In this document: one piece after another, positions 16,194-19,270 of the stretch
Position numbering within the stretch: the stretch's first letter is position 1
Layout: the number at the start of each line of letters is the position of its first letter
Origin: Candidatus Poseidoniales archaeon
GTDB taxonomy: Archaea > Thermoplasmatota > Poseidoniia > Poseidoniales > Poseidoniaceae
Length of the DNA: 64,000 nucleotides
NCBI GenBank assembly: GCA_019651595.1
Contig: BOYQ01000003.1
Coordinates: forward strand, 222,423 to 286,422
Direction of reading: 5' to 3'
Made by a program: the position numbers and the translations under genes
The notes under the pieces: generated by a model
The model's database searches: none
The model's input: only the letters and a program-made list of their open reading frames with translations
What the model was told of the DNA's origin: nothing

Positions 16194-16684
16194 TGCACGG
16201 GAGTCGTTCTTGGGCTCCACGTGAACCCCGAGGGGGGTGTTCCGAAGCACCCAGTTGATACACGCTGGAGGTTGGACGAAACGGGTGTGTCGGTGACAAA
16301 CAGAACGACCGCAAGCACCACGGTGGACCGCAGAAAGCCGTCTGTTTGCTTGAGCAACACGTTCTTGAGCACCTGCAGGCCGAAGGCCATCCCATCGCTC
16401 CCGGCACGACCGGTGAAAACATCCTTGTGGATGGCACTTCACCGGGCCAATTCATCGTTGGCGCCCGTTTGAGCATCGGTGAGGTTGAGTTAACCATCAC
16501 CGGGGATGCACCCCCGTGCAAGACGATTCGTGCCTCGTTTGCTGAAGGAACCTTCAACGAATTGAGTCATCGGAAGACCCCGGGACAAACGCGCTGGTAC
16601 GCCAGAGTGGAACAGACGGGCACCGTGCGAATGGGCGATGCACTTGTGTTCCTCAGTGAAGCCGAGCCAACTGGAAGTCCGTGA
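16194..16684 (+). CDS. MOSC-domain protein (YiiM-like), frameshifted
   Basis: The C-terminal ORF 16346-16684 contains …PGTTGENILVDG…IGEVELTITGDAPPCKTI… (MOSC). An upstream frame supplies …KHHGGPQKAV-like residues. Confidence 0.5.
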
Positions 16685-18403
16685 GTTCCCTGAGGGCACG
16701 CAAGGCGGGGTTCTCACCGAGTGCATCCAAGCAGCCGTGGGCCTCTTGATGGAAGTCCTCAGCCATGCTTTTGGCGTAATCCACCGAACCGAGTTCAGCC
16801 AGGGCGGCCAAACCGTCAGCGAGCGATTCAGGGTCAACGGTCTCACCCTTGCCCAACACGGCCAACAGGCGATCTTTCACGGGACCGTCGGGCTGACGAA
16901 GGGCATGGATGATCATGAGGGTCCGCTTTCCTTGAGCGATGTCAGACCCCGCTGGTTTCCCCAAGGTTTCCGAATCGGAGAGAACATCGATGACGTCGTC
17001 CATCAGTTGGAAACACATCCCGAGGGCCTTGCCCCAAGACGCCATGCATTCAACGGTGGCTTCATCTGCTCCGGAAATTCTCGCACCAATTTCCGCACAT
17101 ATCCAAAACATGACGGCGGTTTTCCCCTCAATCATCTCAAGGTAATCCGCTTCTGAAACCTCAAGACGGTCTTCGAATTCAATGTCGAGTTGTTGCCCCT
17201 CGCTCACCCTTCGCACCATCCATGCGATACGGTTCACCAGGGGTGCTACGTCCGTCGGTTCGAGGTTTTCCGCTTGGACCAGGCGCTCAAAGGCGATGGC
17301 CAGCATCGCATCCCCTGCGTTGATGGCGGTCGGCATGCCGTATTCGATGTGGACGGCGTTGCGCCCTCTTCGCAGTTCATCGTCATCCATGATGTCGTCG
17401 TGAACCAAGGTAAAATTGTGAACGGTCTCGATGGCAGCACCGATGTCAAGAAGGCCGGCGTGCGTGTCGCCCACGGCCTTGCCGACCAACCACGGGAGGG
17501 TGGCTCGCATGCGCTTTCCGCCACCTTCGATGAGGTGCATCATGGCATGACCGAGGCGCTCATGACGTGAGGCACGAAGGCTGGATTCGATGCGTGATTC
17601 GATGAGCGGCTTGACTTCCATGATGGAGGTTAACAAGTCTGCACCTTCTGCACCCGGTAGCATGTTGGTGACGTCGCCCATGTCGTGAATTTGCTCATCC
17701 GCAAGTTCTGCAAGTGCTTGTTGGTCGTTAAACGACGCCCACCATGTGGGTTGCATGATGCGAGCAGCGATGCAGCGAAACCATGGGGCAATGGCCTGTT
17801 CTGGCGGTCGCTCTTCGATGAGCATGGCCTCCATTTCGTCGTGGTTGACCCACATGATGTTGGCCACTTCGTTGGGGTTGGGGTTGATTTCGACGTCAGC
17901 ACACATCACCAAGATGTGATCCACTTCCCGTTCTATCCATTCATGGTTCATTCGCGCAGCATAGCGCATCTTCGTCATGAACACCATGTCGTCGGTGGAG
18001 ACGGTCGATGGGTCAATCCCGAGTTCTTGCTCCAGCTTCCGGACGGCCGCACGCTTGACGCCCATGGCATTCTCTGTTTCCATCTCTTCCTGACTGTGCA
18101 AGGGGTGAGAGCAACAAGCGTTGGCCCACACGTTGGGGAACGTCACTTTGTCAGCGGAACGCTGCTGCAACAACATCTCTCCTTCGAATTGAACAAAAGG
18201 ACACTGAAGGCTCGATGGTAATGGCCGGCGCCTTGATGGGTTTCCAATTTCGACATCGGTCCAATGACCGTGTCGTCCTCGGCCACACAAATGACGGCCT
18301 CGGCCATGAGCGTCGCTTGCTCAGCATCGGAGGATTGCAGGGCGTTCATGTCGTCCTGATTGAGTTCGACATGAGGGACGTCATCAATTCCATACCCTGA
18401 CAT
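16653..18403 (-). CDS. fusion protein: type-1 (Nudix-type) isopentenyl-diphosphate isomerase at the N-terminus and geranylgeranyl-diphosphate (polyprenyl) synthase at the C-terminus; one frameshift near 18160
   Basis: IDI part: …[18 protein letters not shown]… (ORF 18143-18403), then …[25 protein letters not shown]…. Prenyl-synthase part: first DDxxD (LVHDDIMDDDELRRGRNAVH) and second DDxxD (FQLMDDVIDV). Apart from the single indel the ORF is continuous across the junction. Confidence 0.75.
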
Positions 18404-18457
18404 GTGTTCACCGGCTTATTGCAGTCGCGGAGGCTACATGAAGAGTTCTCTGTGCCA

Positions 18458-19270
18458 TCAAGGCGACAAAACCGTGCCTCGGACGTCCAAACCAAGGCAG
18501 GCGTCTCTCACGTTTCCGTCGTGCTCTCCGCTCACGAGGTGGACCTCAACACCGCTTTCAGCCGCCTGGAAACCTCGGGCCACTTTCAGCCCGATCCCGC
18601 CGGTCACATCCATGGCCTCGTGGTGCGTCCCGTCGAAGACATCGCTTCGTTGGAGGACGGGCATCAAGAGCTGCTCGTCGTTGACGCCCGTCGGTGGCGA
18701 GGAAAGCACGCCCTCAACGCCACCCATGGCAAACACCAAGCGTTTGACATTGGGCAGTTCGGTCGCCAGACGAAGAACCAAATCATCACCTGAGAGAATG
18801 CCAAAGTCAGCCGGACCATCGCACTCAACGACATCACCGTGGGTCACCATCACGATCCCGCGGGGCGCTGCTGCAAACATCTCGACGCTCCCCTCAAAGG
18901 TCGGCCCGGTGTTTTTGGCCCACTGATGCGGATGGAGAACGACCGCAGAGATGTCGTACTTCGTAAGGGCGTCCAGGACATGCTGGTTCAGTTCGATCAT
19001 GTCTTTTCTCACCGCCACGACCGCCTCATCTTGGGTCATCTCCTCGGGAACCTCGCCATCTGGAAGGCGCCCCTCTGCCAGCCGGTACGCCTTGGCCTTG
19101 AGGTGTCCAAAGGAACCCGCCCCGTGGACCAACACGACGTCAAGTCCGGCTGTGATGCAACTTTCGAGCTGATCGGCGAGGTGGTCCAACACGTCGGTTC
19201 GGACGGTTTTCATCCGGTCTTTCTGGGTGATGAGGCCGCCGCCCCATTTGATGACGACCCGCTCACGCAT
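18458..19270 (-). CDS. ipk: isopentenyl phosphate kinase (amino-acid-kinase family)
   Basis: IKWGGGLITQK… and VHGAGSFGH motifs, as in the MJ0044-type IPK. Adjacent to the IDI-GGPPS fusion. Confidence 0.75.
   Translation of the reverse strand: MRERVVIKWGGGLITQKDRMKTVRTDVLDHLADQLESCITAGLDVVLVHGAGSFGHLKAKAYRLAEGRLPDGEVPEEMTQDEAVVAVRKDMIELNQHVLDALTKYDISAVVLHPHQWAKNTGPTFEGSVEMFAAAPRGIVMVTHGDVVECDGPADFGILSGDDLVLRLATELPNVKRLVFAMGGVEGVLSSPPTGVNDEQLLMPVLQRSDVFDGTHHEAMDVTGGIGLKVARGFQAAESGVEVHLVSGEHDGNVRDACLGLDVRGTVLSP

What the first reader, a model, noticed from the sequence alone, without database searches (positions are those of the whole stretch)
16653..19270. Single-ORF fusion of type-1 IPP isomerase to GGPP synthase, next to isopentenyl-phosphate kinase
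On the minus strand one reading frame runs from a Nudix-type IDI into a trans-polyprenyl synthase. The IDI part reads [11 protein letters not shown]…[24 protein letters not shown]. The synthase part carries both DDxxD motifs. The frame is broken only by one probable sequencing indel at about 18160. IPK lies immediately upstream. Type-1 IDI is uncommon in archaea, where most use type-2. A covalent IDI–GGPPS fusion would channel DMAPP/IPP straight into C20 lipid-precursor synthesis. I do not recall this architecture being described.
Basis: seen in the sequence. Interest (0 to 1): 0.55.

Follow-up and report, generated by a model that had tools for sequence, protein, structure and literature searches.

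The report
Natural IPP isomerase–GGPP synthase fusion gene
This marine archaeon (Marine Group II) joins two consecutive steps of membrane-lipid precursor synthesis, IPP isomerase and GGPP synthase, into one 583-residue protein; the fusion is real and conserved across the group, and the break in this copy is a sequencing error.

Summary
On the minus strand, 18403..16653 encodes a type-1 IPP isomerase (IDI) joined by about 13 residues to a type-I archaeal GGPP synthase. Isopentenyl phosphate kinase (IPK, 19270..18458) lies 54 bp upstream. The only break is one missing A in an A-run at 18183-18184. Repairing it gives a 583-aa protein identical to a public protein, and a 98.6%-identical public contig has the intact gene. 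The window has dozens of other 1-bp indels, some inside EF-2, so this one is a sequence error.

All 20 complete Marine Group II loci from different species carry one stop-free ORF across both domains, with IPK upstream. Marine Group III and one low-GC lineage keep IDI and GGPPS as separate genes with an ATGA stop/start overlap. Other archaea have type-2 IDI at that position (IPK–IDI2–GGPPS). The likely history is in-place replacement of IDI-2 by a eukaryote-like IDI-1, then fusion.

IDI catalytic and metal residues, both DDxxD motifs and the chain-length region are intact. The C20 product and any substrate channelling are inferred. The architecture is abundant in databases, labelled with one function only, and I found no paper describing it. 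Interest is modest.

The parts
18458..19270 (-). Isopentenyl phosphate kinase (IPK), 270 aa. First gene of the two-gene unit; it makes IPP from isopentenyl phosphate.
   Evidence: NCBIfam NF040647 IPPK_Arch, 155 bits (cut-off 120), and Pfam AA_kinase 8e-25. It lies directly upstream on the same strand wherever upstream sequence is present in the Marine Group II loci.
16653..18403 (-). Fused IDI–GGPPS gene. It is 583 codons plus a stop once one missing base is restored. The ATG at 18403..18401 is preceded by GGTGA.
   Evidence: The repaired translation equals P0001. All 120 listed hits are 565-583 aa and carry PF00293 + PF00348. L001 has the intact ORF.
18183..18184 (-). Site of the 1-bp deletion: AAA has become AA in the K74 codon, which splits the gene into two ORFs in this window.
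   Evidence: blastn alignment to L001, AATTCGAAAGGAGAGAT against AATTCGAA-GGAGAGAT; sequence read.
17676..18403 (-). Type-1 IPP isomerase domain (residues 1-243) of the long, eukaryote-like form. Key motifs are H56/H63 (18238..18215), NACCSHP (18122..18102) and EREVD (17933..17919). It ends with IHDMG.
   Evidence: TIGR02150, 148 bits (cut-off 105.8). Human IDI1 2dho scores 165.8 bits against 48-50 bits for E. coli/Salmonella IDI.
17637..17675 (-). Linker of 13 residues, DVTNMLPGAEGAD. M248-L-P looks like the relic start of a formerly separate GGPPS gene.
   Evidence: The GGPPS alignment to 5jfq/1wy0 starts at residue ~257. The unfused L085 has IDI ending ...GDLT* and GGPPS starting MSLP... 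with an ATGA overlap. The linker is conserved in MGIIa and variable in MGIIb.
16653..17636 (-). Type-I (archaeal) short-chain trans-prenyl diphosphate synthase domain, probably a GGPP synthase (residues 257-583 plus stop). Motifs are GGGKRMR (17525..17505), the chain-length region HNFTLVH (17420..17400), FARM DDIMD (17399..17385) and SARM DDVID (17000..16986).
   Evidence: Pfam PF00348, 221.9 bits. PDB 5jfq scores 214.8 bits with an identical AIETVHNFTLVHDDIMD stretch, and 1wy0 scores 192 bits.

Best explanation
The locus is a two-gene isoprenoid unit, IPK followed by a natural bifunctional IDI–GGPPS gene, in a Marine Group II archaeon (genus Poseidonia or close to it). IPK makes IPP. The N-terminal type-1 IDI domain isomerises part of the IPP to DMAPP. 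The C-terminal type-I prenyl synthase domain condenses DMAPP with three IPP to give GGPP, the C20 precursor of archaeal ether lipids. The domain identities and intact active sites are shown by the sequence. The enzymatic activities, the C20 product and any kinetic benefit of the fusion (fixed 1:1 stoichiometry, proximity of DMAPP supply to its consumer) are inferred. The frameshift in this window is a sequencing or assembly error, not biology. The inferred history has three steps. First, the widespread archaeal IPK–IDI2–GGPPS cluster had its type-2 IDI replaced in place by a eukaryote-like type-1 IDI. Second, IDI1 and GGPPS became translationally coupled through an ATGA overlap, a state still seen in Marine Group III and in one low-GC lineage. 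Third, loss of that stop fused them in Marine Group II.
For: Fusion and error: the repaired ORF equals P0001, and all 120 listed hits carry both Pfam domains at 565-583 aa. L001 has the intact gene, and the window shows a single A-run deletion plus dozens of other indels that break EF-2. Conservation: 20 of 20 complete MGIIa and MGIIb species loci have one stop-free ORF of 562-608 codons spanning both domains, and IPK lies upstream wherever upstream sequence is present. IDI identity: TIGR02150 is above its cut-off, and H56, H63, C98, H100, E158 and E160 align with the E. coli and human IDI metal and catalytic residues. Synthase identity: PF00348 at 1e-65; archaeal GGPPS structures 5jfq and 1wy0 are the best PDB hits; the chain-length region is identical to 5jfq, with Phe at -5 of an uninserted DDxxD. 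History: the Thermoplasmata loci checked have IPK–IDI2 (TIGR02151, 344-361 bits)–GGPPS. In all, 42 non-Poseidoniia loci carry IDI-2 in the locus, mostly just upstream of GGPPS, and no Poseidoniia locus does. MGIII loci and L085 have separate IDI1 and GGPPS genes with a 4-bp overlap. Recurrence: independent IDI–prenyl synthase fusions with other subfamilies exist (P0137, P0208), and an engineered IDI–GGPPS fusion was reported to raise GGPP-derived product (PMC6786277).
Against: No biochemical data exist for any member. NCBIfam equivalog models for GGPP synthase (254 bits against a cut-off of 500) and IdsA (284 against 468) are not reached, so product length is not assigned by curated models. 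Nothing shows channelling; the linker is short, but its geometry is unknown because the AlphaFold model was unusable (mean pLDDT 41.6). The polarity of fusion versus fission inside Marine Group II is not resolved, because L085 could be a secondary split. The eukaryote-like affinity of the IDI domain rests on bit scores and a few named hits, not on a phylogeny.
Confidence: 0.85

Rival explanations
1. The apparent fusion is an assembly or sequencing artefact: IDI and GGPPS are really separate adjacent genes, as in Marine Group III, and a missed stop or indel merges them.
For: This window demonstrably contains many 1-bp indels. Separate, 4-bp-overlapping IDI and GGPPS genes do exist in related lineages.
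Against: More than 100 distinct 565-583-aa proteins come from independent assemblies (ENA, NCBI, JGI, Logan). In addition, 20 of 20 complete MGII species loci show the same in-frame junction with no stop. The junction in the window has no indel relative to L001.
Confidence: 0.02
2. The gene is a true pseudogene, or is expressed by programmed frameshifting, in this particular genome. On this reading the 1-bp deletion is real.
For: The frame is broken in the sequence given.
Against: The deletion lies in a homopolymer run. The same stretch of the window has dozens of similar indels that break essential genes such as EF-2, which is intact at 735 aa in L001. Proteins 100% identical at the amino-acid level are intact elsewhere. 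No other IDI was found in the window.
Confidence: 0.03
3. The fusion is real, but the C-terminal domain does not make C20 as its main product. It could be a bifunctional FPP/GGPP (IdsA-like) synthase or a C25 geranylfarnesyl synthase, feeding quinones, carotenoids for rhodopsin retinal, or C25 lipids.
For: The best NCBIfam hit is the IdsA 'short chain' model, and geranylfarnesyl diphosphate synthase also scores 233 bits. No equivalog cut-off is met.
Against: The chain-length region AIETVHNFTLVHDDIMD is identical to that of PDB 5jfq, deposited as geranylgeranyl pyrophosphate synthetase. It has Phe at -5 and no FARM insertion, the type-I GGPPS signature from established knowledge.
Confidence: 0.12
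4. The N-terminal domain is a Nudix hydrolase acting on prenyl diphosphates, or a regulatory domain, rather than an isomerase.
For: The Pfam hit is only to the generic NUDIX family (3e-9).
Against: TIGR02150 and PRK03759 IDI equivalog models are both above their cut-offs. The match to human IDI1 is 165.8 bits, and the IDI-specific Cys/Glu/His set is conserved in all fused relatives.
Confidence: 0.03

Closest known systems
Stand-alone type-1 IPP isomerase (human IDI1, PDB 2dho/2icj; E. coli Idi, PDB 1nfs)
   Same: The fold family and the catalytic Cys/Glu and metal-binding His/Glu residues are the same. The long form includes the C-terminal WW...IHxM tail seen in eukaryotic IDI1.
   Different: Here it is the N-terminal domain of a 583-aa protein. 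It is far closer to human IDI1 (165.8 bits) than to the enterobacterial enzymes (48-50 bits).
Archaeal type-I GGPP synthases (PDB 5jfq; PDB 1wy0)
   Same: The match runs full length at 215 and 192 bits. The two DDxxD motifs and the GGKRxR IPP site are present, and the chain-length region is identical to 5jfq.
   Different: It carries an N-terminal IDI domain, and it scores below the NCBIfam GGPP_syn and IdsA equivalog cut-offs.
Archaeal IPK–IDI2–GGPPS gene cluster (seen here in Thermoplasmata, Bathyarchaeia, Methanosarcinales and other loci)
   Same: The same three consecutive pathway steps appear in the same order and on the same strand.
   Different: The isomerase is the non-homologous FMN-dependent type 2, and all three genes are separate.
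IDI–squalene synthase fusion of diatoms and other stramenopiles (PtIDISQS; PMC12168105)
   Same: It is a natural fusion with a eukaryote-type IDI-1 at the N-terminus of a downstream isoprenoid enzyme. The IDI domains are 45-46% identical to the one here (P0264 from Cafeteria, P0186).
   Different: The partner is SQS_PSY (PF00494), two steps further down the pathway, not the enzyme that directly consumes DMAPP. It is eukaryotic.
Engineered IDI–(GGGGS)2–GGPPS fusion (Pichia IDI + Sulfolobus acidocaldarius GGPPS; PMC6786277)
   Same: The domain order and the archaeal type of GGPPS are the same, and it was built to raise GGPP supply.
   Different: It is synthetic with an artificial linker. The natural protein has a 13-residue native linker derived from a former gene boundary.

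Membership tests
Type-1 isopentenyl-diphosphate isomerase (TIGR02150; Nudix superfamily) | Score above the curated equivalog cut-off | tested here: met
   TIGR02150 scores 148.2 bits against a cut-off of 105.8, and PRK03759 scores 133.2 against 127.
Type-1 isopentenyl-diphosphate isomerase (TIGR02150; Nudix superfamily) | Catalytic Cys in NxxCxHP and catalytic/metal Glu pair ExE (E. coli C67, E114, E116; residue numbers from my own knowledge) | tested here: met
   NACCSHP (C98) aligns with the E. coli NSVCGHP and human NTCCSHP motifs. EREVD (E158, E160) aligns with ENEVC and EHEID. E158 and E160 are invariant in six diverse fused proteins; C98 is kept in five of them, the sixth having Ala.
Type-1 isopentenyl-diphosphate isomerase (TIGR02150; Nudix superfamily) | Metal-binding histidines (E. 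coli H25, H32, H69) | tested here: met
   H56, H63 and H100 align with them and are invariant.
Type-1 isopentenyl-diphosphate isomerase (TIGR02150; Nudix superfamily) | IPP/DMAPP isomerase activity | not testable with these tools
   This needs an enzyme assay or complementation.
trans-Prenyl diphosphate synthase (PF00348), type-I short-chain GGPP synthase | Pfam domain above the gathering score, with both Asp-rich motifs | tested here: met
   PF00348 scores 221.9 bits against 27. DDIMD (336-340) and DDVID (469-473) are present.
trans-Prenyl diphosphate synthase (PF00348), type-I short-chain GGPP synthase | Aromatic residue at position -5 of an uninserted first DDxxD (the type-I GGPPS chain-length rule, from established knowledge) | tested here: met
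   F331 sits in HNFTLVHDDIMD, identical to the same stretch of PDB 5jfq. 1wy0 has Tyr at that position.
trans-Prenyl diphosphate synthase (PF00348), type-I short-chain GGPP synthase | Score above the NCBIfam equivalog cut-off for GGPP synthase or IdsA | tested here: not met
   GGPP_syn scores 254 bits against 500, and IdsA_Meth 284 against 468. The domain is a clear relative but lies outside the curated equivalog range, so the product is not assigned by these models.
trans-Prenyl diphosphate synthase (PF00348), type-I short-chain GGPP synthase | C20 product | not testable with these tools
   This needs a product-length assay.
Archaeal isopentenyl phosphate kinase (NF040647) | Score above the equivalog cut-off | tested here: met
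   155 bits against 120, covering residues 6-267 of 270.
Stramenopile IDI–SQS fusion proteins | C-terminal squalene/phytoene synthase domain (PF00494) | tested here: not met
   The window protein has PF00348, not PF00494. P0264 and P0186 have PF00494. It is an analogue, not a member.

The most novel reading that the evidence does not exclude
The fusion may be a lineage-defining innovation of Marine Group II. On this reading, a eukaryote-like IDI-1 acquired by horizontal transfer displaced IDI-2 inside the ancestral IPK–IDI–GGPPS operon. It was then welded to GGPPS, so that DMAPP is handed directly to the synthase. That would be true kinetic coupling or channelling that sets the 1 DMAPP : 3 IPP usage, beyond mere co-expression.
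Probability: 0.2. Interest if true: 0.55.

Novelty: new variant of a known kind. Interest (0 to 1): 0.38.

Why it matters
Marine Group II archaea are among the most abundant uncultured microbes of the surface ocean, and the nature of their membrane lipids is still argued over. A single, easily expressed protein covering IPP to GGPP gives a direct biochemical handle on their isoprenoid supply.

The locus also preserves every stage of a gene-fusion history in living lineages. These are separate IPK–IDI2–GGPPS genes, in-place replacement by a non-homologous IDI-1, ATGA-coupled genes, and finally a fused protein. That makes it a clean natural example for studying why pathway neighbours fuse.

It is also a natural counterpart to fusions that metabolic engineers build to increase GGPP. 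On the practical side, database annotation ('isopentenyl-diphosphate delta-isomerase', or in one JGI record 'GGPP synthase type I') names only one of the two functions. Pathway reconstructions could therefore wrongly score one step as missing.

Tried and rejected
**Structure prediction.** An AlphaFold2 model of the fused protein, built from 27 close homologues, was unusable (mean pLDDT 41.6, pTM 0.38). Nothing can be said about domain packing or a channel, and I ran no fold search on it.

**Literature.** Ten full-text searches were run. None found a description of a natural archaeal IDI–GGPPS fusion. Several queries were swamped by unrelated uses of 'IDI'. One paper (Villanueva et al. 2017, by DOI) is not held in the library.

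**Promoter and terminator scan.** The scan of 16300-19500 gave nothing above shuffled expectation, and it does not cover archaeal promoters.

**Rejected explanations.**
- Fusion as an assembly artefact. It is contradicted by more than 100 independent intact ORFs.
- Real pseudogene. The window is riddled with similar indels in essential genes.
- Generic Nudix hydrolase. The IDI equivalog models and catalytic residues are met.

**Not resolved.**
- Whether Marine Group II genomes also carry an IDI-2 or a second prenyl synthase elsewhere. Only the 64-kb window and flanks of up to 6 kb were checked.
- Whether the unfused L085 lineage is ancestral or a secondary split.
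Full report
**1. What is in the sequence**

Two overlapping ORFs in different frames lie on the minus strand. ORF 18403..18143 is 86 aa and ends ...[19 protein letters not shown].... ORF 18290..16653 is 545 aa and contains ...[27 protein letters not shown]... followed by a polyprenyl synthase. Pfam finds NUDIX (PF00293, 3e-9) and polyprenyl_synt (PF00348, 1e-65) in the 545-aa ORF. It finds AA_kinase in the upstream ORF 19270..18458.

Reading the DNA, the two frames join if one base is added in ...AAT TCG AA_ GGA GAG ATG.... 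The result is [21 protein letters not shown], the canonical type-1 IDI motif.

**2. The break is a sequence error**

The repaired 583-aa protein was searched against public proteins.
- All 120 listed hits are 565-583 aa, at 84-100% identity, and carry both Pfam domains.
- P0001 is identical to the repaired translation.
- NCBI names these proteins 'isopentenyl-diphosphate delta-isomerase' from Candidatus Poseidonia, Poseidoniales or Thermoplasmatota.

One contig (L001, 62,983 bp) is collinear with window 10813-24402. Identity is 98.6% over the part that holds this gene. In the gene the only indel is AATTCGAAAGGAGAGAT (L001) against AATTCGAA-GGAGAGAT (window). So one A of an AAA run is missing, at 18183-18184.

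The window also shows 53 gap openings against L001 in 10813-16184. These split elongation factor 2, which is intact at 735 aa in L001.

**3. Anatomy**

*IDI domain, residues 1-243 (18403..17676).*
- TIGR02150 scores 148 bits against a cut-off of 105.8.
- Human IDI1 (PDB 2dho) scores 165.8 bits, E 1e-47. E. coli and Salmonella IDI score 48-50 bits. This is the long, eukaryote-like form.
- Named relatives at about 45% identity are eukaryotic, from Albugo and Cafeteria.
- In the alignments, H56, H63 and H100 match the metal histidines. C98 in NACCSHP matches the catalytic Cys. E158 and E160 in EREVD match the Glu pair. The histidines and the Glu pair are invariant in six diverse fused proteins; C98 is kept in five of the six, P0208 having Ala there.

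*Linker, DVTNMLPGAEGAD (17675..17637).*

*Synthase domain, residues 257-583 (17636..16656).*
- The best solved relatives are archaeal GGPP synthases: 5jfq at 214.8 bits and 1wy0 at 192 bits.
- GGGKRMR, DDIMD and DDVID are present.
- The chain-length region AIETVHNFTLVHDDIMD is identical to 5jfq, with Phe at -5 of an uninserted first motif. From established knowledge this is the type-I GGPPS signature.
- NCBIfam equivalog cut-offs for GGPP_syn and IdsA are not reached (254 against 500; 284 against 468). C20 is therefore an inference.

*Upstream gene.* It is IPK (NF040647, 155 bits, cut-off 120). It sits 54 bp upstream, and GGTGA precedes the IDI ATG. The next gene upstream of IPK is on the other strand, so IPK and IDI–GGPPS form a two-gene unit.

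**4. Distribution**

A scan of one genome per species, followed by tblastn and ORF checks, gave the following.
- All 20 complete loci from Poseidoniaceae (MGIIa, 61-86% identity) and Thalassarchaeaceae (MGIIb, 46-50%) have one stop-free ORF of 562-608 codons spanning both domains. IPK lies directly upstream wherever upstream sequence is present.
- Four Marine Group III or other Poseidoniia loci (L036, L043, L044, L057) have IDI-1 and GGPPS as separate genes overlapping by 4 bp. For example, L043 has genes at 5917-6651 and 6648-7628. The IDI ends ...IHHMGNCE*.
- A low-GC marine contig with the window's synteny (IPK–IDI–GGPPS–EF-2, L085) also has them separate, with an ATGA overlap.
- In the fused proteins, M248-L-P aligns with the M-S-L-P start of the unfused GGPPS. 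This suggests a relic start codon (an inference).

**5. Wider context**

In the three Thermoplasmata loci checked, the gene between IPK and GGPPS is the non-homologous type-2 IDI (TIGR02151, 344-361 bits, cut-off 281). Forty-two non-Poseidoniia loci carry an IDI-2 in the locus, in most cases just upstream of the GGPPS. No Poseidoniia locus and no part of the 64-kb window does.

Hoshino and Gaucher state that IDI-II predominates in archaea (PMC6107057). The simplest history is in-place replacement of IDI-2 by IDI-1, then translational coupling, then fusion. A Nitrosopumilaceae locus has MVK–IPK–short IDI-1–GGPPS as separate genes.

**6. Recurrence and precedents**

Among 50%-identity cluster representatives, IDI–prenyl synthase fusions occur with other domain subfamilies.
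- P0137 combines a human-like IDI with a type-III GGPPS (PDB 2q80, 309 bits).
- P0208 and P0190 combine an IDI-1 with a prenyl synthase carrying a small residue at -5; for P0208 the IDI is E. coli-like and the synthase 4dhd-like.

The architecture has therefore arisen several times. IDI–squalene synthase fusions of stramenopiles (P0264 from Cafeteria, P0186) are the described natural analogue (PtIDISQS, PMC12168105). An engineered IDI–(GGGGS)2–GGPPS in the same order was built to raise GGPP supply (PMC6786277).

**7. Mechanism and confidence**

- Shown: two intact catalytic domains in one conserved ORF, next to IPK.
- Inferred: IPK makes IPP; the IDI domain converts part of it to DMAPP; the synthase domain makes GGPP from DMAPP plus three IPP. 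The fusion would enforce 1:1 expression and proximity.
- Untested: channelling. An AlphaFold model from a shallow alignment failed (mean pLDDT 41.6).

**8. Novelty**

The proteins are abundant in public databases but are named for one function only. Ten literature searches found no description of the archaeal fusion. That is absence of evidence within the library searched, not proof.

I rate it a new variant of known kinds, of modest interest. It is a tidy, testable natural bifunctional enzyme with an unusually complete evolutionary trail. It is not a new type of system.

Noticed in passing
window 10813-16184, especially EF-2 at 13971-16183; also 22389: Against the near-identical contig L001 the window has 53 gap openings in this stretch (94.5% identity). 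They split elongation factor 2, which is intact at 735 aa in L001, and neighbouring genes. There is another 1-bp deletion at 22389. This part of the window is low-quality sequence.
   Followed up: partly
window about 10970-12240 (-); L001:12322-13593: A UbiD-family decarboxylase (TIGR00148, 302 bits) lies a few kb from the IPK/IDI–GGPPS unit. It is a candidate for the anhydromevalonate-phosphate decarboxylase step of the archaeal mevalonate pathway. That idea comes from my own knowledge and was not tested.
   Followed up: no
window 20481-21674 (+), 21641-22480 (+), 22540-23556 (+): An archaeal-type thiolase (PRK06064, 445 bits, above cut-off) is followed by two ORFs with no Pfam or NCBIfam hit, rather than the usual HMG-CoA synthase and DUF35 partners.
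   Followed up: partly
window 23682-24707 (+): An actin/MreB-like gene of 341 aa. The precomputed Pfam hits on the L001 copy are MreB_Mbl and Salactin, with Volactin weak.
   Followed up: no
window 16346-16684 (+); L001:7721-8209: A MOSC-domain gene converges on the fused gene and overlaps its 3' end by about 32 bp. In the window it is truncated by indels.
   Followed up: no
L077:4160-7607 (Nitrosopumilaceae MAG): A mevalonate kinase–IPK–short bacterial-type IDI-1–GGPPS cluster, with IDI and GGPPS overlapping by 4 bp. Type-1 IDI next to GGPPS is therefore not confined to Poseidoniia among marine archaea.
   Followed up: partly
P0137, P0190, P0208, P0211 (metagenomic proteins): Independent IDI fusions. 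P0137 is a human-like IDI plus a type-III (eukaryotic) GGPPS. P0208 and P0190 are an IDI-1 plus a prenyl synthase with a small residue at -5, which hints at a longer product; P0208's domains are E. coli-like and 4dhd-like. P0211 is DUF6962 plus IDI.
   Followed up: partly
L009 (CALDQY010000021.1): This contig is titled 'uncultured Rhodobiaceae bacterium', yet it carries an MGII-type IPK and the fused gene at 67% identity. It is probably a mis-binned archaeal contig.
   Followed up: no
P0136 (290 aa; ENA contig of 1.9 Mb): An apparent 'stand-alone' IDI, 50% identical, whose C-terminal 60 residues look like out-of-frame translation. It is probably another fused gene broken by a frameshift in a long-read assembly.
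   Followed up: no
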